A DNA stretch of 16,221 nucleotides from a virus. Below, one piece after another: positions 1 through 16,221 of this stretch (position 1 is its first letter; each line of letters starts with the position of its first letter). Below the pieces are notes generated by a model that was given only the letters and a program-made list of their open reading frames with translations, made no database searches and was not told where the DNA came from. The stretch is from positions 1-16,221 of IMG/VR virus record IMGVR_UViG_3300004481_000091; one strand, written 5' to 3'. The position numbers and the translations under genes are program-made.

Positions 1-110
1 GGCGATCCGGGTCCCCATCACCTTCGTGATCAGCGCGGCGACGTTGAACGCGGAGTCCTGGAGCAGCTCGACGGACACGCGGATCGGGACGTCGTCCGCT
101 CCACCGGCGG
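1..110. repeat. Terminal direct repeat, copy 1, identical to 16112-16221. It is the closure overlap of a circular or circularly permuted 16,111-bp unit.
   Basis: Base-by-base comparison of the first 110 nt with the last 110 nt shows identity. The repeat lies inside one continuous reading frame, the capsid gene. Confidence 0.95.
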
Positions 111-669: not shown

Positions 670-1248
670 TCACCTCTCCAGGTGGTGTACGCGGGCGCGT
701 GCCCGGATGAGCTGGCTACGGCGCCGGCTGGCGACGAGCAGACGCGAGCGGGTCTCTGTGGTGGCCCCCGAGTAGGCGGGGAACGTCACCGGTGAGACGT
801 CGATCAGTTCACGCACGTCGGTGTGCGTGGTCGTGTCGGTGGCCTGGTCGTACTCGGCAAGATCGGGCACGAACGCGAACGAGGCGCCGTCGATGTCGCC
901 GCGCTCGACGAGCTGCCGGAGATCGCGGGCGTACGTGGTGTCCGGTAGGTCAACCTCGTACTCCAGGCCGTGAGAGTCCGCGCTGAGCCGGAGTGTGCCG
1001 GCCTTCTGCCGCCCGAGGACGTGCAGCGGGCTGTGGTTGTACAGCGAGCGCGCGTCGCTGGTCTCCAGGGCCCGGTCGAGCGATCCAACGGCCATGCGCT
1101 CGTTGCCGCGGTCTCCGAGGTCTGCGCTTTCGTCGAACACTGCCGCGTAGCCGCCGAGGCGGTTGCCGCGTAGCTCGGGCTTGGATCGGAACTCGATACG
1201 CGTTACGGAACGACGAAACGTATCGGGTTTACGCGAAACGGAACTCAT
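670..1248 (-). CDS. Prohead (capsid maturation) protease, HK97/S78 family
   Basis: 192-aa ORF lying between portal and capsid. It contains LGGYAAVFDE...NHSPLHVLG...GLEYEVDLPDT..ARDL..LVERGDIDGASFAF...VSPVTFPAY, typical of S78 prohead proteases. Its start is coupled to the portal stop by an ATGA overlap. Confidence 0.85.
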   Translation of the reverse strand: MSSVSRKPDTFRRSVTRIEFRSKPELRGNRLGGYAAVFDESADLGDRGNERMAVGSLDRALETSDARSLYNHSPLHVLGRQKAGTLRLSADSHGLEYEVDLPDTTYARDLRQLVERGDIDGASFAFVPDLAEYDQATDTTTHTDVRELIDVSPVTFPAYSGATTETRSRLLVASRRRSQLIRARARVHHLER

Positions 1249-2618
1249 GGGGTCACCTCGGGTGCGGGTTCCAGCGCGGCCAGGAGCGGTACGCCCTTGA
1301 TACGGATGATGTCGCCACCCTCGACCGGGGGGAGGTTCCGGACGGCCCGAGCCTCGTTGATGGTCATCAGCCCGCCGTCCACCTGCTTGTTCAGCAGGTC
1401 AACCTCAGCCTCGGGTGACGGCCGCTCCAACCCGCTGAAGTCGAACTCAACGAACCGATCCCCGCGGAGCAGACGCGAGAGCCGCTGCTCGATCAGGGCC
1501 GCCCACGGCGCCAGGACCGTGCGGCCCATGCCCCGATTGGACTCAGCGACCCCGGTACCCCAAGAGGTCTGCTTGTCGGTCTGCATGAGCAGGTGCGGGG
1601 GCACGCCCGTCCAGCGGCTGATCTCCTCGACCTGGAACGCCCGCGACTCGATGAACTGCGCGTCCTCCGCGCTCATCGTCCAGGGGGTGAACTTCAGGCG
1701 CCGGTTGACGAACCGAATGCCGCTCGCGTTCTCCCAGCCGGCCACCTTGCGCTGCAACGCCTCATTGATCAGCGCCGCGTCGTCGTCCTCTGTGTCGTCA
1801 CCCTCTGGACTGACCAGTCCGGAGATGAGCGCGCCGTTGTTGAACATGTTCGCCGCGGCCCGGTCACCGGCGATCGCCGTCCCGAGCGAGTTGCGGGCCA
1901 TGGTGAGCAGAGACAGGCCAACGATCCCGTCAGTGCTCATGCTCGGAATGTGCGTAAGGGTCGAACCGTCGTGCGTCTCCATGCTGCCGTCGAGCATCGT
2001 GATCGTGAACAGCTTGCCGCCGACCACAGGCCGGTTGCTGTCCGGCCAGTACCGCGCCACCTCGGTCCGCACGCACAACGGGTGCGCGGGAACGAGCGAG
2101 ACGATCTGACCGGCCCCACCTCGGACGTGCAGCAGGAACGCGTTACCGTGCAAGATCAAATGGACGAGGACGGTCTGCTTCCACTCGAACGCGGTCGGCC
2201 CGTCCGGGCCGCCTGGAGTGTCCAGGAAGCTCTTGACGCGCTCCCGCTGGCCGGGTGCCGGTTCGGCCAGGGCCCGCATCGGTAGCTGTGCCAGGGTGCC
2301 GCTGATGAGCAGCACGGCCCGGAAGAATGCGGCGATTCCGAGCGCGGTCTGTTCGTCGACCTCGACGCCGCTGTAGTTGGGCGGGCCGACGTTGAAGATG
2401 GCCGCGAAGTTGGGATCCGACACGGAGATCAGTGATCTCTGTTCGGCCTGCTCCTGCCTTGTCCAAGGCCACCGGATCTTCACGACGCGATCATACGCCG
2501 AACGCGACCAACTAGGTACGATGATCACATGAGATGCGTCGCTGGTCAGCTCGCACAGACGGTCATGGATGCCGTCGATGGTCTCGACGTCACTGACCAG
2601 GACGAGCCGGTCATCCAC
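1245..2618 (-). CDS. Portal protein (HK97-family portal). The 5' end is uncertain.
   Basis: 457-aa maximal ORF (GTG at 2618). Portal-like segments include ...YSGVEVDEQTALGIAAFFRAVLLISGTLAQLPM... and ...FIESRAFQVEEISRWTGVPPHLL... It sits directly upstream of the protease. An alternative start is the GTG of VKIRWPW near 2484. The first ~90 nt of the maximal ORF overlap the terS ORF on the other strand. Confidence 0.85.
   Translation of the reverse strand: MDDRLVLVSDVETIDGIHDRLCELTSDASHVIIVPSWSRSAYDRVVKIRWPWTRQEQAEQRSLISVSDPNFAAIFNVGPPNYSGVEVDEQTALGIAAFFRAVLLISGTLAQLPMRALAEPAPGQRERVKSFLDTPGGPDGPTAFEWKQTVLVHLILHGNAFLLHVRGGAGQIVSLVPAHPLCVRTEVARYWPDSNRPVVGGKLFTITMLDGSMETHDGSTLTHIPSMSTDGIVGLSLLTMARNSLGTAIAGDRAAANMFNNGALISGLVSPEGDDTEDDDAALINEALQRKVAGWENASGIRFVNRRLKFTPWTMSAEDAQFIESRAFQVEEISRWTGVPPHLLMQTDKQTSWGTGVAESNRGMGRTVLAPWAALIEQRLSRLLRGDRFVEFDFSGLERPSPEAEVDLLNKQVDGGLMTINEARAVRNLPPVEGGDIIRIKGVPLLAALEPAPEVTP
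2517..2531 (+). promoter_or_regulatory. Candidate -10 element (TACGAT) placed to give a leaderless terS mRNA starting at ATG 2529
   Basis: GGTACGAT followed by 6 nt and then ATG. There is no Shine-Dalgarno upstream. The GGTACGNT-N6/7-ATG arrangement matches the one at 6731-6748. Confidence 0.25.
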
Positions 2619-2822
2619 CTCGCGATCAGCTACGCACGGCTGATCGACCAGGTGCCGGACTACGCGTCAAAGGTCGGTCCGATGCTGCTGGCCGCGCTCG
2701 AAGCGCTGCTGATGACTCCGCGCGCCCGTGCGGCGATCGTGAAGGGGGCGAACAGTGACCAGCGCAAGACACAGTCCCCGCTCGACGAACTCCGAGCGAA
2801 ACGAGCAGGGCGCGCCGGATGA
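2529..2822 (+). CDS. Small terminase subunit candidate (short, P27/HK97-type C-terminal signature)
   Basis: 97-aa ORF ending 1 nt before a GTG in the terL frame. It contains ...LAISYARLIDQ...MLLAALEALLMTPRARAAIVKG...SPLDELRAKR, which resembles the C-terminal helices and basic tail of small terminases. It lies immediately upstream of terL on the same strand. Confidence 0.5.
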   Translation: MRCVAGQLAQTVMDAVDGLDVTDQDEPVIHLAISYARLIDQVPDYASKVGPMLLAALEALLMTPRARAAIVKGANSDQRKTQSPLDELRAKRAGRAG

Positions 2823-2823
2823 C

Positions 2824-4302
2824 GTGCTGGGTGTGCCCGTCCCCCGGCTCTGGACACCCCCGCTCCGTGAACTGACTCCGGAGACCAGCTACGGGTTCGA
2901 CGTCGTTGACTTCGCCCGTGACGTGATGCTCATGCCCCTCGACCCGTGGCAAGAGTGGCTGGTCATCCACCTCGGAGAGTTGCTGATCGATGGCCGGCCG
3001 AGGTTCCGTACCGTGCTGGTGCTGGTCGCCCGCCAGCAAGGCAAGAGCCACCTGGCCCGGGTGTTGACCTTGTACTGGATGTTCGTCGACCAGGTCCCGC
3101 TCGTTCTCGGGCTGAATGCCACCCTGGCGTACGCCAAGGAGCAGTGGACGATGGTGTGCGAGACCGCAACTGGAAACGAGTGGCTGGCCGAGGAGCTGCC
3201 GAGCAACGCGATTCGCGCGACGATCGGCGAAGAGTGCCTGAGGACGACCAACGGAAGCCGGTACAAGATTGCGGCGAGCAACCGGAAGGCCGGTCGAAGC
3301 CTGACCATCGACCGGGTGCTGGCCGACGAGCTCCGCGAGATGCGCACGTGGGACGCGTGGAACGCTGCCGAGAACGCCATGAACGCCCGCCGGTACGCGC
3401 AACTCGTGGCGATCACCAACCAGGGCGATGACACCGCGGTCGTGCTCGACGCACTCCGTGGCCCGGCCCTGGAGTACATCGAGACCGGGCAGGGCGATCC
3501 GAGGCTCGGGATGTTCGAGTGGTCGTCCCCGATGGGATCGGATCCGTGCGACCTGGAAGCGCTTGCCCAAGCCTGCCCCGACCTCGGCAACAGAACCGAC
3601 CCTGACGCACTGCTCGGGAAGGCCGCGAGGGCGAAGCGCGCCGGAGGTGCGGAGCTGGCCAGCTTCCGCACAGAGGTCATGTGCATGCGCGTGCAGCTGC
3701 TCGATCCGGCGATCGATCCGGACTGCTGGAAGGCGTGCGCGACCACGACGCCGCTTGACCTCGCAACGGTCAGAAACCAGGTCGCGCTCTGTCTCGACGT
3801 GTCCCTGGACGGGTCGCATGCGTCGCTCGTCGCCGCGGCCGAGGTTGACGGCCTGGTGCACATCGACGTGGTCAAGGCGTGGTCAGGTTTTGGGTGCACG
3901 AAGGCGGTGCGCGCCGAGCTGCCTGCGATCGTGGCGCGGGTGAAACCTCGGGTGGTCGGCTGGTTCCCGAACGGACCGGCCGCCGTCCTCACGGCGGACA
4001 TGGCCAAGAAGCGCGCCCGCAACTGGCCACCGCGGCGAGTGAAGATCGAGGAGCTCAAGGAGGAGATGACGGCCGTCTGTATGGCTCTGCCGGCCCTGGT
4101 CGAGGGGAACGAGGTTCGGCAGGCCGACGATCCGATGCTCAACGCGCACGCGGGTGCGGCACAGAGGCTGATGCGCGCCAACGGAACGTGGGTGTATCAG
4201 CGGGCGGGTACCGGGCCGATCGATGGGACGTACGCGATGGCGGGCGCCGTGCACCTTGCCCGCACGCTGCCGCCCGCGCCCGCTCCGCTCGTCGTGATCT
4301 GA
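2824..4302 (+). CDS. terL: Large terminase subunit (Terminase_1-like ATPase plus RNaseH-like nuclease)
   Basis: The maximal ORF starts at GTG 2755. GTG 2824 is preferred because it follows the terS stop directly. Walker A-like VLVLVARQQGKSHL, Walker B-like LTIDRVLADELREM, and nuclease-domain ALCLDVSLDGSHASLV. The PRLWTPPLRELTPETSYGFDVVDFA...PWQEW N-terminus is typical of actinophage TerL. Confidence 0.9.
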   Translation: MLGVPVPRLWTPPLRELTPETSYGFDVVDFARDVMLMPLDPWQEWLVIHLGELLIDGRPRFRTVLVLVARQQGKSHLARVLTLYWMFVDQVPLVLGLNATLAYAKEQWTMVCETATGNEWLAEELPSNAIRATIGEECLRTTNGSRYKIAASNRKAGRSLTIDRVLADELREMRTWDAWNAAENAMNARRYAQLVAITNQGDDTAVVLDALRGPALEYIETGQGDPRLGMFEWSSPMGSDPCDLEALAQACPDLGNRTDPDALLGKAARAKRAGGAELASFRTEVMCMRVQLLDPAIDPDCWKACATTTPLDLATVRNQVALCLDVSLDGSHASLVAAAEVDGLVHIDVVKAWSGFGCTKAVRAELPAIVARVKPRVVGWFPNGPAAVLTADMAKKRARNWPPRRVKIEELKEEMTAVCMALPALVEGNEVRQADDPMLNAHAGAAQRLMRANGTWVYQRAGTGPIDGTYAMAGAVHLARTLPPAPAPLVVI

Positions 4303-4765
4303 GCGGGTACCCGCCGGAGTGGGTCGGTGCGTGCAGGTCGAGCGGGTACCCGGGGCGATGGTACCCGCCCGCTTACGCTGGCCCGGGTGCCCGACAACGG
4401 GCGGGTACCTCAGCGGGCGCCCGCACGCGGCCGAGGCGTAGGCGGGTACCCGCTTGTACCCGTTCGCGGTCGGGTACCCGCTCATCGTACCCGCGCTGTA
4501 CCCAGGTGGACTGCGGGTATAGATGATGACCTATCTAGCTCGAGGTTTCATCTACCACAGTCAATACCCGGTACCCGCCCGGTCATGCCCCCAACCGGCC
4601 CGAACACCCGCGCAAAAAAAGGACAGTACGGCGGGTGTTCCGATCGGTCAGGATCCTGAACTTTTTGGCTCCGCGCTGCCGCCCGCCCGATCTGCACGCG
4701 CATGCCCGCTCATCTTGCGGGTACCCGTCCGCACCTTCGGCGCTGCTCGCTCTGGCGGGTACATG
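4303..4765. repeat. Array of at least 14 copies of a GGTACC-centred palindrome (GCGGGTACCCGC) and its half-sites. It is a putative multi-site protein-binding region (cos/packaging recognition or other).
   Basis: Full or near-full palindromes at 4303-4314, 4343-4352, 4442-4453, 4471-4480 and 4717-4728. GTACCCG-type half-sites at 4360-4369, 4456-4462, 4487-4493, 4498-4504, 4564-4570 and 4570-4579. CGGGTA-type half-sites at 4401-4410, 4513-4520 and 4755-4764. One degenerate copy at 4384-4393. An AT-richer core lies at about 4519-4566. Confidence 0.85.
4602..4640. repeat. Perfect 10-bp inverted repeat (GAACACCCGC ... GCGGGTGTTC) around a 19-nt spacer containing an A7 tract. It is a possible terminator or protein-binding site at the end of the early operon.
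   Basis: The arms are at 4602-4611 and 4631-4640, with A7 at 4614-4620. It lies just downstream of the 91-aa gene stop (4648) on the minus strand, where the spacer reads as T7. Confidence 0.4.
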
Positions 4766-5406: not shown

Positions 5407-5721
5407 CTACCTCCGGTGGATGCCAGGGCATCGAGCAGAGGTGAGCGGGTCTGCCCCATACCACCAGCGATGCGGACTGTGCGGCGCCCGATCCGGGCAG
5501 TTGGTCATGCCATCGTGCAGCGTGCTACGAGCGATGAGTGCTGAGCGCAGCGCGTCGCTGTGGCACACGATCAGCGCGTCGAGAATCCACTGATCGACGC
5601 CTTCTTGACCAGCCAGCACGTAGCGATCAGCGTGCAGTTGGGCGATGCGGAGCAGGGTCTCTGGAGTGGTTTCCAGGTTCCTGAGTCTGATGATCTCCAA
5701 GTTGATCTCATCGATGGTCAC
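5407..5721 (-). CDS. Hypothetical protein (104 aa)
   Basis: The start is trimmed to GTG 5721 (AAAGGGG Shine-Dalgarno 6-7 nt upstream), 12 nt after the Rep-like stop. The longer 146-aa ORF would overlap the upstream gene. No recognisable domain. Confidence 0.55.
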   Translation of the reverse strand: MTIDEINLEIIRLRNLETTPETLLRIAQLHADRYVLAGQEGVDQWILDALIVCHSDALRSALIARSTLHDGMTNCPDRAPHSPHRWWYGADPLTSARCPGIHRR

Positions 5722-5732
5722 AATTGCCCCTT

Positions 5733-6623
5733 TCAGGCAGCGATGATCTTTCGTGCAGTGGGGTAGTGCTCCAACCAGCCGGCAGGACGCAGATGCTCGC
5801 GGCCCGCGTACGGGTCTTCTCCAGCGGCCAATTCGCCCTTGCAGCACGGGCAGGCGCTCCAGGTGCTACCGCGATGCAGCGGGCAGGGCCGCTCCGTGCC
5901 CTGAGCGCGTCTCTGTGGCTCCAGCGCGGCTATGCGTGCCGCGAGTACGCGACCGGGCATTCTGGCGCCGTCCAGGCTCTTGCCGGCTACCTCGGAGACG
6001 ATCTGAGATTCGGCCACGCCTCGCCCGATCGCCTCGATCGTCGCGGTTGTCATTCGACCAAAGTCCATGTTGGACAGTTGGGTTTCGAGCACAGGCAGGG
6101 CGGCCCGCACCCGAGCGACGCACGCCTGCCCTGCCGCTACCTCTCCGTCGGTGCGCTTTTCCCCAACCGATGCGAGCGGGGGGGAGGGGGGGGTTTCCCG
6201 AGGAAGGACGGGGAAAGACGGGGAGGGTGCGTCTACAGAGGCAGAAGGTGCGTCTACAGAGGCAGTAGGCGCGTCTGTAGACGCACCTTTACGTGAGTTA
6301 TCCACAGGCAGAGCGGGCAGGACGTATGTGGTCTGCCGTCCCTTGTGTGCGTAGATGGGGCGTCCGCGTGAATCTTCGCCATGCGAAACGCGGCACTCCA
6401 GTCCTCGAGAGGACAGCCGTTCCAGTACCTGGCGGAGCCGCGAGACTCCGATGATCGTCGAGAGGTTCCATCCGTCCGTATCCCATGCTCGGCGCGCATT
6501 CGGGCCGCGCTCCGAGGCGTTCTCGGCGATCACGTACAGCACCAGTCGCTCTGCCGGCGTGAGGTCACGTCCGGTCCCGCTGGCCAGGTAGTTTGTGACT
6601 TCCTGGCTGAGCTGCCATGCCAT
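5733..6623 (-). CDS. Winged-helix DNA-binding protein, candidate replication initiator
   Basis: The N-terminal wHTH-like segment is LTPAERLVLYVIAENA...STIIGVSRLRQVLERLSSRGLECRV...GRPIYA. A low-complexity P/S/A/T/D linker follows. The C-terminal domain has a Cys/His cluster (CPLH...CPCC). GAAAGG Shine-Dalgarno before ATG 6623. It is the first gene of the early operon, and repeats are embedded in the linker-coding DNA. Confidence 0.45.
   Translation of the reverse strand: MAWQLSQEVTNYLASGTGRDLTPAERLVLYVIAENASERGPNARRAWDTDGWNLSTIIGVSRLRQVLERLSSRGLECRVSHGEDSRGRPIYAHKGRQTTYVLPALPVDNSRKGASTDAPTASVDAPSASVDAPSPSFPVLPRETPPSPPLASVGEKRTDGEVAAGQACVARVRAALPVLETQLSNMDFGRMTTATIEAIGRGVAESQIVSEVAGKSLDGARMPGRVLAARIAALEPQRRAQGTERPCPLHRGSTWSACPCCKGELAAGEDPYAGREHLRPAGWLEHYPTARKIIAA
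6178..6193 (+). repeat. G7-A-G8 homopolymer pair, followed by further G4/G3 tracts up to about 6227
   Basis: Read directly: gggggggagggggggg, then ...acggggaaagacggggaggg. It encodes TPPSPP on the opposite (sense) strand of the Rep-like gene. Confidence 0.9.
6226..6287. repeat. Two tandem 21-bp repeats plus an inverted copy (candidate iterons) inside the Rep-like gene
   Basis: GGTGCGTCTACAGAGGCAGAA (6226-6246) and GGTGCGTCTACAGAGGCAGTA (6247-6267) are followed by a degenerate third unit. CTGTAGACGCACC at 6275-6287 is the exact reverse complement of GGTGCGTCTACAG. Confidence 0.85.
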
Positions 6624-6656
6624 ATGCTCGCCTTTCGGCTATGACTGTCGCCGTGC

Positions 6657-6684
6657 GCCCCGGGTCCCATGCCCGGGGCTTTTC
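6657..6684. promoter_or_regulatory. GC-rich hairpin (GCCCCGGG / CCCGGGGC, 7-nt loop) followed by T4, in the Rep/RHH divergent region
   Basis: The arms are at 6657-6664 and 6672-6679, with TTTT at 6680-6683. It looks like a terminator on the plus strand, but no plus-strand gene lies upstream. On the minus strand it falls in the 5' leader of the Rep-like gene. Confidence 0.4.
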
Positions 6685-6706
6685 CTTGCCCGCTGACTGT
6701 AGCAGT

Positions 6707-6725
6707 GTTCACTACCGTTCACTAC
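6707..6725. promoter_or_regulatory. Tandem direct repeat GTTCACTAC x2 (10-bp register), candidate operator upstream of the RHH gene
   Basis: GTTCACTAC at 6707-6715 and 6717-6725. It sits 8 nt upstream of a TACGCT -10-like hexamer (6733-6738), and ATG 6746 lies 7 nt after that hexamer. Confidence 0.45.
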
Positions 6726-6745
6726 GTTGTGGTACGCTGCGATAC

Positions 6746-15586: not shown

Positions 15587-16221
15587 TCAGACGTTGCGGA
15601 GGATCTTGTACGCGGACCGGTTCTGAATGTTCCCGTCCGCGCGCTGCCAGCCGGTGTACTCGACCTGGCCGTAGTTGGCCCTGGAGTACGGGTTGACGAC
15701 GATCGCGAGCTGGGAGACGCGCCGGATGATGTACGCCTCGGACAGCACGCCGAGAACCGCGAAGTAGGCCCCGGTGTCGACGAGGTTCGGCATGCCCTGG
15801 TCGATGACGACCGGGTAGCCGAGGAGCACCTTCTCCGGCTTGCCGCCGATACCGGCCTGTGCCGCTGGCTGGACCAGGGGCCGCCCGTCGGTCCCGACAA
15901 TGGCCCTGATCTGTGTCCAGGAGGCCTTGTTCATGGCCCACTTGGCGTTCTGCTCGTACGCGGGGTCCAGGGCGCCTTCGAGGTCAAGCACGTCGTCGTA
16001 GTCGATCGTGTCGGAGACGTCCAAGGTCTCGTCGGCGGTCAGGCTCGCGGCGACGATGCCCTTGGGCTGTCCGACCCCGGTGCCGGTGCACCAGTGTGCG
16101 GCCTGCTTCCGGGCGATCCGGGTCCCCATCACCTTCGTGATCAGCGCGGCGACGTTGAACGCGGAGTCCTGGAGCAGCTCGACGGACACGCGGATCGGGA
16201 CGTCGTCCGCTCCACCGGCGG
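15587..16221 (-). CDS. Major capsid protein, HK97 fold, C-terminal part. 16112-16221 duplicates 1-110, and the gene continues upstream into 111-663.
   Basis: SVELLQDSAFNVAALITKVMGTRIARKQAAHWCTGTGVGQPKGIV...NAKWAMNKASWTQIRAIVGTDGRPLV...LLGYPVVIDQGMP...AYIIRRVSQLAIVVNPY... is typical HK97-family capsid sequence. The reading frame is open to the window end and in phase with 1-663. Confidence 0.9.
   Translation of the reverse strand, partial: AGGADDVPIRVSVELLQDSAFNVAALITKVMGTRIARKQAAHWCTGTGVGQPKGIVAASLTADETLDVSDTIDYDDVLDLEGALDPAYEQNAKWAMNKASWTQIRAIVGTDGRPLVQPAAQAGIGGKPEKVLLGYPVVIDQGMPNLVDTGAYFAVLGVLSEAYIIRRVSQLAIVVNPYSRANYGQVEYTGWQRADGNIQNRSAYKILRNV
16112..16221. repeat. Terminal direct repeat, copy 2 (identical to 1-110)
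   Basis: Direct comparison shows identity. Confidence 0.95.

What the first reader, a model, noticed from the sequence alone, without database searches (positions are those of the whole stretch)
6178..6290. Iteron-like 21-bp repeats plus an inverted copy inside the linker-coding part of the Rep-like gene
- **Repeats.** Two tandem 21-bp units (6226-6246 and 6247-6267) differ by one base. A degenerate third unit follows. An exact 13-bp reverse complement (CTGTAGACGCACC, 6275-6287) of the unit core GGTGCGTCTACAG completes the set.
- **Position in the gene.** They sit in the DNA that encodes the low-complexity linker (ASTDAPTASVDAPSASVDAPS) between the winged-helix N-domain and the Cys/His C-domain of the only replication-initiator candidate.
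- **Precedent.** This matches the lambda O arrangement, where the origin iterons lie within the initiator gene at the domain boundary. The protein repeats may simply be a by-product of selection on the DNA.
- **Possible autoregulation.** A related CTGCTACAG element lies in the gene's own upstream region (minus strand, about 6695-6703).
Basis: partly seen in the sequence, partly recalled or inferred. Interest (0 to 1): 0.62.

Follow-up and report, generated by a model that had tools for sequence, protein, structure and literature searches.

The report
Replication origin inside phage initiator gene
A 16-kb high-GC phage very probably carries its replication origin (one perfect host DnaA box plus three 20-bp binding-site repeats) inside the floppy-linker part of its own initiator gene, as phage lambda does, and about a dozen distant relatives show that the DNA, not the encoded peptide, is what is conserved.

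Summary
The repeats are real and sit where stated. On the + strand, 6226-6287 holds three 20-bp sites spaced exactly 21 bp apart. The site nearest the N-domain coding part is a near-perfect palindrome (GGTGCGTCT-AC-AGACGCGCC).

It is the only such box in the genome.

The gene product has no direct Pfam or PHROG hit. Its relatives hit HTH_36 and PHROG "replication initiation (O-like)", and several sit directly upstream of DnaB-type helicase genes.

- **Relatives:** all 12 loci with DNA carry an array of dyad sites in the same linker, in a common frame RAAGG-N16-CCTTY. The inner bases differ between lineages in a compensatory way.
- **Reading frames:** in five relatives the same DNA motif is read in two or three reading frames.
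- **Synonymous changes:** they are suppressed in the box and iteron codons (0/27 versus 58/223).
- **DnaA boxes elsewhere:** perfect boxes recur at this spot in five other loci, four independent lineages in all counting the window's own clade, and nowhere else in those loci.

Best reading: a lambda-type in-gene origin with a plasmid-style DnaA box. Binding and origin activity are inferred, and no AT-rich unwinding tract is seen. This scan has reported similar in-gene origins on other DNA.

The parts
5733..6623 (-). Initiator-like gene (P0001, 296 aa). It has an N-terminal winged-HTH-like domain (aa 1-105), a disordered linker (aa about 106-155), a helical domain (aa 159-235) and a Cys/His-rich C-terminus.
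   Evidence: ORF and translation. AlphaFold2 model. No direct Pfam, PHROG or NCBIfam hit. Ten of 20 relatives hit PF13730 HTH_36. Eight of 20 hit phrog_270 'replication initiation protein' and 6 of 20 hit phrog_391 'replication initiation O-like'.
6298..6306 (+). Perfect DnaA box TTATCCACA. On the gene strand it reads TGTGGATAA and is translated as Pro-Val-Asp-Asn.
   Evidence: It is the only match with up to 1 mismatch in the window, against 0.055 perfect boxes expected. Perfect boxes lie at the same place in L002, L003 (x2), L005 (x2), L012 (x3) and L013, and nowhere else in those loci.
6268..6287 (.). Iteron 1, a near-perfect 20-bp palindrome (gene strand GGTGCGTCT-AC-AGACGCGCC).
   Evidence: (I2, I3). 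It fits the family frame AAAGG-N16-CCT.
6247..6266 (.). Iteron 2 (gene strand ACTGCCTCT-GT-AGACGCACC). The right half is exact and the left half matches 6 of 9.
6226..6245 (.). Iteron 3 (gene strand TCTGCCTCT-GT-AGACGCACC).
6172..6225 (-). Pyrimidine-rich, C-run tract on the coding strand directly after the last iteron (G-runs on the + strand). It encodes PSPSFPVLPRETPPSPP. It could be an unwinding or strand-asymmetric module, or simply a Pro/Ser linker.
   Evidence: The + strand over 6170-6225 is 80% purine at 71% GC. It contains the most pyrimidine-rich 40-mer of the whole window on that strand, and the same holds in 7 of 11 lineages. Third codon positions are 77% pyrimidine against 53% elsewhere, but the tract was chosen by its pyrimidine content, so this comparison is biased.

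Best explanation
Window 6172-6306 is the phage's origin of replication, written into the part of the initiator gene that encodes the disordered linker between its DNA-binding N-domain and its C-terminal domains.

**Proposed mechanism** (all steps inferred except where noted):
1. Dimers of the gene's own N-terminal winged-HTH domain bind the three 20-bp dyad sites. The sites are 21 bp apart, so they lie on one face of the helix.
2. Host DnaA binds the adjacent perfect DnaA box.
3. Together they distort and open neighbouring DNA, possibly the strand-asymmetric C-rich tract.
4. They recruit the host helicase, because this 16-kb genome encodes no helicase, primase or polymerase of its own.

**Role of the peptide.** It is a passive read-out of the DNA elements, tolerated because the linker is unstructured.

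**Shown here:** the elements, their phasing, their DNA-level conservation and their family-wide recurrence.

**Inferred:** binding, unwinding and origin firing.
For: **1. The elements are far from chance.** There are three sites at 21-bp spacing. The only DnaA box in the genome lies 11 bp away, against 0.055 expected.

**2. DNA-level selection.**
- W versus the 90% relative shows 0 synonymous changes in 27 conserved box and iteron codons, against 58 in 223 outside (Fisher p = 5e-4).
- W versus the 74% relative shows 3 in 25 against 81 in 197 (p = 0.003).

**3. Family-wide architecture.**
- All 12 loci with DNA have arrays of dyad sites in the same linker.
- Eleven of 12 fit the frame AGG-N15-17-CCT, at 6.5 per kb in the linker against 0.68 per kb elsewhere.
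- Of 153 family representatives, 135 have repeated 4-mers in residues 96-220, against 16 and 18 in the flanking segments.

**4. Dyad symmetry is kept by compensatory changes between lineages.**
- 82% of cells are paired, against 65.5% in shuffles (0 of 500 shuffles reach this).
- 41 cells change on both sides, against 18.5 in shuffles.
- Slid controls give at most 50% paired.

**5. The same DNA motif is read in different frames.**
- L006 uses three frames (GGQTVQ, GWTDCP, RVEGLST).
- L007, L010, L011 and L013 each use two.
- Eight family proteins show the multi-frame peptide signature.

**6. DnaA boxes recur.**
- Perfect boxes lie at the same spot, and only there, in L002, L003, L005, L012 (three in tandem, 12 bp apart) and L013.
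- The tripeptide VDN occurs in the linker of 26 of 160 family proteins and nowhere else in them.
- The prediction that VDN marks a DnaA box was tested on L012 and L013 and held.

**7. Initiator identity.**
- Relatives hit HTH_36 and PHROG 'replication initiation protein' and 'O-like' families.
- The homologous gene is followed directly by DnaB (L011) or Toprim/AAA_25 (L010), and after one small gene by AAA_25 (L007). It follows Cro/Xis-like HTH_17 (L007, L010) or RecT/YqaJ genes (L009, L011).

**8. The linker is predicted disordered**.

**9. Precedents.**
- ori-lambda lies in the middle of gene O, and extra iterons add residues to the O protein (PMC7466680).
- Iteron plasmids combine DnaA boxes with iterons (PMC4980987).
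Against: - No protein-DNA binding, unwinding or replication assay exists.
- No AT-rich unwinding element adjoins the iterons. The flanking tract is 71% GC, and the lowest-GC stretch of the genome (5661-5750) is about 480 bp away.
- P0001 itself has no significant family hit.
- Fold searches against PDB were not significant.
- The GC-skew profile gives no origin signal in so small a genome.
- L004, L006, L007, L009, L010 and L011 lack a DnaA box, so the box is not universal in the family.
- From memory, the DnaA box reported for high-GC actinobacteria is TTGTCCACA rather than TTATCCACA. The host is unknown.
- The dyads would also form RNA or ssDNA hairpins (z = -7.0).
- Some sites in the covariation set were picked by a dyad scan, which biases.
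Confidence: 0.7

Rival explanations
1. The array is a binding-site cluster for the gene's own product that serves only regulation, and replication starts elsewhere. Possible roles are autorepression by roadblock, copy control or handcuffing, or a centromere-like site.
For: Dyad sites for a dimeric wHTH protein are also typical of operators, and no AT-rich unwinding element is adjacent. Iterons in plasmids act in control as well as initiation (PMC4980987).
Against: - A perfect DnaA box recurs beside the array in four independent lineages. It has no obvious place in a pure operator.
- No copy of the half-site lies in the gene's promoter region 6624-6745.
- The only other repeat cluster in the genome (4303-4765) flanks the probable cos site.
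- No partition genes are present.
Confidence: 0.13
2. The palindromes act as RNA hairpins in the initiator mRNA, or as ssDNA hairpins or a cruciform. They might pause ribosomes between the two domains, control mRNA stability or prime synthesis, rather than bind protein as duplex DNA.
For: The mRNA over 6170-6320 folds at -51.2 kcal/mol, z = -7.0 against shuffles. Compensatory changes in the dyads fit base-pairing as well as dimer binding.
Against: - Units 2 and 3 in the window keep the right half-site exactly but pair at only 6 of 9 positions. Sequence, not pairing, is what is conserved.
- The W and L003 versions of iteron 1 are reverse complements of each other. This gives G-U in one and C-A in the other on the sense strand.
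- The outer arms GAAGG/CCTTC are conserved as sequence across the family.
- DnaA boxes are unexplained by this reading.
- Rfam gives no match.
Confidence: 0.06
3. The repeats are only a protein-level feature. A low-complexity Ala/Ser/Pro/Asp linker expanded by replication slippage, and the DNA has no function.
For: Disordered linkers often carry tandem repeats. In the window itself the three units are in frame (21 bp).
Against: - Dyad symmetry has no meaning at protein level.
- The same DNA motif is read in two or three frames in relatives.
- Synonymous changes are depleted.
- A perfect DnaA box is conserved across lineages whose proteins are about 25-35% identical.
Confidence: 0.03
4. The true origin is the GGTACC-palindrome array at 4303-4765, and the in-gene sites are secondary.
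For: It is the densest repeat cluster in the genome and is intergenic. It is conserved in the 90% relative.
Against: - The linear records of relatives end at the place equivalent to window about 4633, inside this array. That fits a cos or terminase-binding region. An earlier agent of this scan mapped cos to 4621-4641 (e1-3276631).
- The array has no DnaA box.
- It is not linked to the initiator gene in distant relatives.
Confidence: 0.05

Closest known systems
ori-lambda inside gene O of phage lambda and the Stx phages 933W and P27
   Same: - The origin lies in the middle of the initiator gene, in the part between the N-terminal DNA-binding domain and the C-terminal domain.
- It has several sites of about 19-20 bp with internal dyad symmetry.
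- Extra iterons add residues to the protein (PMC7466680).
- The initiator N-domain is of the HTH_36 type (PMC5509034, for O-like proteins; for relatives of P0001).
- The phage relies on host replication enzymes.
   Different: - P0001 has no detectable sequence match to O-family models.
- A perfect DnaA box sits beside the iterons.
- There is no AT-rich tract; a 71%-GC pyrimidine-rich tract follows instead.
- No P-like helicase-loader gene was recognised.
- The genome has about 66% GC, and relatives of the gene family lie in actinobacterial prophages (Lentzea, Streptomyces).
Iteron plasmid origins with DnaA boxes (RK2 oriV, P1, F, pSC101)
   Same: DnaA box(es) are placed next to an array of initiator-binding repeats. 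Host DnaA is thought to help recruit the host helicase (PMC4980987).
   Different: - Those origins lie outside the rep ORF and include an AT-rich DUE with 13-mers.
- Their Rep proteins have the WH1-WH2 fold (Rep_3). Only one relative here touches PF01051, at E = 0.03, and the fold match to a plasmid RepA (4pta) is not significant.
RepA of extrachromosomal mycobacteriophage prophages (Miko, Rachaly, Lokk, CRB1)
   Same: These are actinobacteriophage HTH initiators whose origin was proposed to lie just upstream of, or within, repA, by analogy with lambda (PMC7157519).
   Different: That paper found no repeated motifs. No homology between those RepA proteins and P0001 was seen here, because tblastn of P0001 against 50,697 phage records found nothing.

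Membership tests
Lambda-type in-gene origin (ori-lambda in gene O) | Origin elements lie inside the initiator ORF, between the DNA-binding N-domain and the C-terminal domain. | tested here: met
   The array and DnaA box occupy gene nt 318-398, which is aa 106-133. The N-domain (1-105) is confident and residues 111-155 are disordered.
Lambda-type in-gene origin (ori-lambda in gene O) | Several iterons of about 19-20 bp with internal dyad symmetry at about two helical turns. | tested here: met
   Three 20-bp dyads at 21-bp spacing.
Lambda-type in-gene origin (ori-lambda in gene O) | AT-rich unwinding tract next to the iterons. | tested here: not met
   The flanking tract 6170-6225 is 71% GC. The lowest-GC stretch of the genome is about 480 bp away.
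Lambda-type in-gene origin (ori-lambda in gene O) | Initiator homologous to lambda O (HTH_36-type N-domain plus an O-type C-domain). | tested here: inconclusive
   P0001 has no hit even at E up to 10. Ten of 20 relatives hit HTH_36, and relatives hit 'replication initiation O-like' PHROGs. BFVD fold hits are weak.
Lambda-type in-gene origin (ori-lambda in gene O) | The initiator binds the iterons and the fragment fires as an origin. | not testable with these tools
   Needs EMSA or footprinting and a replication assay.
Iteron plasmid origin (RK2, P1, F, pSC101 type) | DnaA box(es) adjacent to the iterons. | tested here: met
   A perfect TTATCCACA lies 11 bp from iteron 1 and is the only one in the genome. 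It recurs in relatives.
Iteron plasmid origin (RK2, P1, F, pSC101 type) | Rep protein of the WH1-WH2 (Rep_3) type. | tested here: inconclusive
   P0001 has no Rep_3 hit. One relative hits at E = 0.03. Foldseek to 4pta gives TM 0.46 at E = 3.
Iteron plasmid origin (RK2, P1, F, pSC101 type) | Origin outside the rep ORF, with an AT-rich DUE carrying 13-mers. | tested here: not met
   The elements are inside the ORF and no AT-rich DUE is present.
Pfam PF13730 HTH_36 | Match to the model above its gathering score. | tested here: not met
   P0001 gives no match. Membership rests only on transitive homology, through 10 of 20 relatives that match (best E = 4.2e-9).

The most novel reading that the evidence does not exclude
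A large, uncharacterised family of actinobacterial phage and prophage initiators uses its inter-domain linker as a 'translated origin'. The profile search found at least 831 clusters at 50% identity.

- DnaA boxes (read as Pro-Val-Asp-Asn) and 26-bp palindromic iterons dictate the peptide in whichever frame they happen to fall.
- The iterons have conserved outer arms (GAAGG/CCTTC) and lineage-specific inner bases.
- The family would therefore be a natural, directly minable data set for how a winged-helix recognition surface co-evolves with its site.
- DnaA boxes may be kept only where the element lacks its own helicase.
Probability: 0.45. Interest if true: 0.62.

Novelty: new variant of a known kind. 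Interest (0 to 1): 0.5.

Why it matters
**What it gives.** It gives a concrete, testable origin and initiator for a minimal 16-kb phage that encodes no replication enzymes. It also annotates a sizeable family of 'hypothetical' phage and prophage proteins as initiators with in-gene origins.

**What the comparative pattern shows.** The pattern consists of:
- the same DNA motif read in three frames;
- DnaA boxes translated as PVDN;
- compensatory changes in the dyads.

This is a clean example of a cis-element overprinted on a disordered protein linker. Such overprinting explains otherwise puzzling repeat-rich linkers.

**Practical use.** Small initiator-plus-origin cassettes of this kind could seed replicons for high-GC actinobacteria. 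The site and protein pairs could also inform rules of winged-helix DNA recognition.

**Limits on novelty.** The layout is a known design from lambda, and this scan has reported comparable in-gene origins with DnaA boxes on other DNA.

Tried and rejected
- **Direct family searches of P0001.** Pfam, PHROGs and NCBIfam gave nothing, even at E up to 10 for Pfam.
- **tblastn against 50,697 phage records.** It found nothing.
- **Profile searches against PDB sequences.** Nothing better than E = 0.16.
- **Foldseek.** The full model and the N-domain model against PDB gave nothing significant. BFVD gave only weak hits to phage HTH, 'replication initiator A' and 'replisome organizer' proteins.
- **The search for related loci.** The 7-sequence alignment was too divergent. 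With the N-domain alignment, only the known 90% relative turned up in IMG/VR, and nothing in GTDB genomes.
- **GC skew.** The profile was uninformative.
- **AT-rich DUE.** I searched next to the iterons and found none.
- **Upstream CTGCTACAG element.** Rejected.
- **My own error.** From I first concluded that the 90% relative lacks the GGTACC array. That region was not in the loci I held. on the whole record shows the array is present, split over the record's ends.
- **Host oriC.** I wanted to look at the host oriC boxes for L013, but that genome is not held.
- **Host.** It was not identified. The best phage portal matches are only about 32% identical and taxonomically mixed.
Full report
**Setting.** The window is a complete IMG/VR virus record of 16,221 bp. 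Its two ends repeat 110 bp inside the major capsid gene, so the unit is about 16.1 kb. The genome has about 66% G+C.

The portal, protease, capsid, tape-measure and tail genes are on the minus strand, and the large terminase is on the plus strand. I found no polymerase, primase or helicase. The gene in question runs 5733-6623 on the minus strand and encodes P0001, 296 aa.

- Tandem Repeats Finder reports 6226-6276, period 21, 2.4 copies, 93% matches.
- The 13-mer GGTGCGTCTACAG occurs exactly three times, at 6226 (+), 6247 (+) and 6275-6287 (-). All other matches in the window need 3 mismatches.

Read on the gene strand, the array is three 20-bp sites starting at gene nt 337, 358 and 379:
- GGTGCGTCT-AC-AGACGCGCC
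- ACTGCCTCT-GT-AGACGCACC
- TCTGCCTCT-GT-AGACGCACC

The first is a near-perfect palindrome with 9-bp arms and a 2-bp centre. The other two keep the right arm exactly and 6 of 9 bases of the left arm. The 21-bp spacing puts all three on one face of the helix.

A perfect DnaA box (TTATCCACA, + strand 6298-6306) lies 11 bp from the first site. It is the only match with up to one mismatch in the whole window. From base composition, 0.055 perfect boxes are expected. On the gene strand it reads cCTGTGGATAAc and is translated Pro-Val-Asp-Asn.

**What the protein is.** P0001 has no direct hit in Pfam, PHROGs or NCBIfam and no tblastn hit in 50,697 phage records.
- A word-indexed search found six relatives at 27-90% identity.
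- A profile search of 1.84 billion representatives found 831 clusters at E up to 0.001, and 590 at E up to 1e-10.
- Of 20 relatives, 10 match PF13730 HTH_36 (best E = 4.2e-9).
- Eight match phrog_270 'replication initiation protein', and several match 'replication initiation O-like' PHROGs.
- HTH_36 is the N-terminal domain that HHpred detects in lambda-O-like proteins (PMC5509034).

Gene context in relatives agrees. The homologue is directly followed by DnaB in a Streptomyces prophage (L011). It is directly followed by a Toprim/AAA_25 protein in L010, next to an integrase and a Xis/Cro-like gene. In L007 an AAA_25 helicase follows after one small gene. In L009 and L011 it lies downstream of YqaJ/RecT genes.

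AlphaFold2 gives a confident N-domain (residues 1-105, pLDDT about 90), a disordered stretch (111-155, pLDDT below 50) and a helical domain (159-235). The array and the box fall exactly in the disordered linker.

Fold searches against PDB were not significant. BFVD gave weak matches to phage HTH, 'replication initiator A' and 'replisome organizer' proteins. So 'initiator' rests on remote homology and gene context, not on a direct hit.

I fetched DNA for 11 relatives.

Every one has an array of repeated, dyad-symmetric sites in the same place, directly after the N-domain coding part. Examples:
- L005: GGTGCCCCT-AC-AGGGGCGCC (x2)
- L007: GGTGCGGTC-AG-GACCGCACC (six copies, period about 33)
- L006: GGTGGACAG-A-CTGTCCAsC (five copies)
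- L010: GGGCACGCC-GT-GGCGTGCCC (about six copies)
- L009: GGGTCGGTC-AG-CACCGACCC (about seven copies)
- L011: GGGGAGAAC-N-CAGTCTCCCC (four to five copies)

Eleven of the 12 loci fit a common 26-bp frame, RAAGG-N16-CCTTY. Even the loose pattern AGG-N15-17-CCT occurs at 6.5 per kb in the linker window against 0.68 per kb elsewhere.

The outer arms are conserved, and the inner bases differ between lineages while staying complementary. On 20 sites, 82% of cells pair against 65.5% in shuffles (0 of 500 shuffles reach this). Forty-one cells change on both sides against 18.5 in shuffles, and slid controls give at most 50% paired. The caveat is that a few of those sites were picked by a dyad scan.

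**Reading frames.** In L006 the five copies of one DNA motif start at codon positions 1, 1, 3, 2 and 3. They are translated GGQTVQ, GGQIVQ, RADEPST, GWTDCP and RVEGLST. L007, L010, L011 and L013 also read the same motif in two frames. Eight family representatives show this multi-frame peptide signature.

A repeat kept as DNA while its translation changes frame cannot be a protein-level feature.

At family scale, 135 of 153 representatives have repeated 4-mers in residues 96-220. Only 16 have them in residues 1-95, and 18 in residues 221-345.

**Synonymous changes.** Between the window and its 90% relative there are 0 synonymous differences in the 27 amino-acid-conserved codons of the box and iterons, against 58 in 223 outside (Fisher p = 5e-4). 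Against the 74% relative the counts are 3 in 25 and 81 in 197 (p = 0.003).

The 74% relative carries iteron 1 as the exact reverse complement of the window's version, as expected for a symmetric site. It also has an 11-codon insertion that duplicates the DnaA box plus half a site.

**DnaA boxes across the family.** Perfect TTATCCACA boxes lie in the same orientation, just upstream of the iterons, in L002 (1), L003 (2) and L005 (2). They occur nowhere else in those 4-14.5-kb loci.

The tripeptide VDN, mostly as PVDNS, occurs in the linker of 26 of 160 family proteins and never outside it. I used this as a prediction and fetched two such genes.
- L012 (70.5% GC) has three perfect boxes in tandem at 12-bp spacing, followed by dyad iterons.
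- L013 is an integrated element with 68% GC. It has one perfect box followed by four repeats read in two frames.
- These are the only boxes in either locus, against expected counts of 0.018 and 0.047.

Six loci (L004, L006, L007, L009, L010, L011) have no box, so it is an optional module. It is absent from all three lineages that have a helicase gene next to the initiator gene. It is present in 4 of 7 lineages without one. That hint fits DnaA-mediated recruitment of the host helicase, but the numbers are too small to test.

**A third module?** Directly after the last iteron the coding strand becomes pyrimidine-rich. In the window this is 6172-6225. The + strand over 6170-6225 is 80% purine, with G7 and G9 runs.

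It contains the most pyrimidine-rich 40-mer of the whole locus in 7 of 11 lineages. Third codon positions in it are 77% pyrimidine against 53% elsewhere. I chose the tract by its pyrimidine content, so that comparison is biased. A Pro/Ser-rich linker also gives pyrimidine-rich codons on its own, so I leave this open. No AT-rich unwinding element is adjacent, and that is the main gap in the origin model.

**The other candidate site.** The 4303-4765 array of GGGTACCC palindromes is real. I first wrongly inferred that the 90% relative lacks it. Those loci stop short of the region. The whole record shows the array split across its two ends.

The IMG/VR record and the ENA contig of that relative both end about 1,990 nt downstream of the rep start, equivalent to window about 4633. 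This agrees with an earlier agent's mapping of cos to 4621-4641 (e1-3276631). The array is thus better explained by packaging than by replication, and it has no DnaA box.

**Rivals.**
- A purely regulatory binding array cannot be excluded. It does not explain the conserved DnaA box, and no half-site lies in the promoter region.
- RNA hairpins are physically plausible (z = -7.0). However, in the window sequence rather than pairing is conserved, and the sense-strand mismatches are not consistently wobble pairs. Rfam gives nothing.
- A protein-level slippage repeat is contradicted by the frame changes, the dyad symmetry and the synonymous-site depletion.

**Comparison with what is known.** The layout works like ori-lambda. 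That origin lies in the middle of gene O and consists of O-binding iterons plus an AT-rich tract, and the extra iterons in Stx phages add 13 residues to O (PMC7466680).

It differs in three ways:
- a plasmid-style DnaA box beside the iterons, as in RK2, P1, F and pSC101 (PMC4980987);
- no AT-rich tract;
- an initiator that fails direct membership tests for the O and Rep_3 families.

This scan has already reported in-gene origins with DnaA boxes on other DNA: e1-3292462, e1-3294052, e1-3445820 and e1-2686681. None shares sequence with this protein.

**Verdict.** I rate it a new variant of a known kind: a lambda-type in-gene origin with a DnaA box, in an uncharacterised family of initiators of actinobacterial phages and prophages. 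Confidence in the origin reading is about 0.7, and interest is 0.5.

Noticed in passing
window 4303-4765 and about 4633; G001 (record of L008) 1-312 and 16012-16103: The GGGTACCC palindrome array is conserved in the 90% relative and is split across the two ends of its linear record. Two independent records of that relative end at the place equivalent to window about 4633. This fits a cos site inside the array.
   Followed up: partly
window 6172-6225 (- strand); same position in L003, L004, L009, L011, L012, L013: The pyrimidine-rich tract directly after the last iteron is the most pyrimidine-rich 40-mer of the whole locus in 7 of 11 lineages. The G-rich + strand carries G7 and G9 runs and could form G-quadruplex or triplex structures. 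Whether selection acts on the DNA or on a Pro/Ser linker is unresolved.
   Followed up: partly
L007, L010, L011 versus window, L005, L012, L013: Perfect DnaA boxes occur only in lineages without a helicase gene next to the initiator gene. They occur in none of the three lineages that have one. The numbers are small.
   Followed up: no
L003:2607-2660 (gene nt 301-354): An 11-codon insertion duplicates the DnaA box plus half an iteron, giving two perfect boxes 33 bp apart.
   Followed up: partly
window 6657-6684 (+) and 6707-6726: A 9-bp GC hairpin followed by T4 (terminator-like on the + strand) and a tandem 10-bp repeat GTTCACTACC/GTTCACTACG lie in the 122-bp divergent control region. That region sits between the initiator gene and a 47-aa plus-strand ORF. 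No iteron half-site is present there.
   Followed up: no
window 1-110 and 16112-16221: The 110-bp terminal direct repeat lies inside the major capsid gene. It therefore marks circular assembly, not physical genome ends.
   Followed up: partly
window 2755-4302 (+) versus 1245-2618 (-): The large terminase gene is transcribed divergently from the portal-protease-capsid operon. This is an unusual order for a siphovirus-type genome.
   Followed up: no
window 5661-5750: The lowest-GC stretch of the whole genome (47% over 60 bp) spans the stop of the initiator gene and the start of the next small gene, about 480 bp from the iterons.
   Followed up: no
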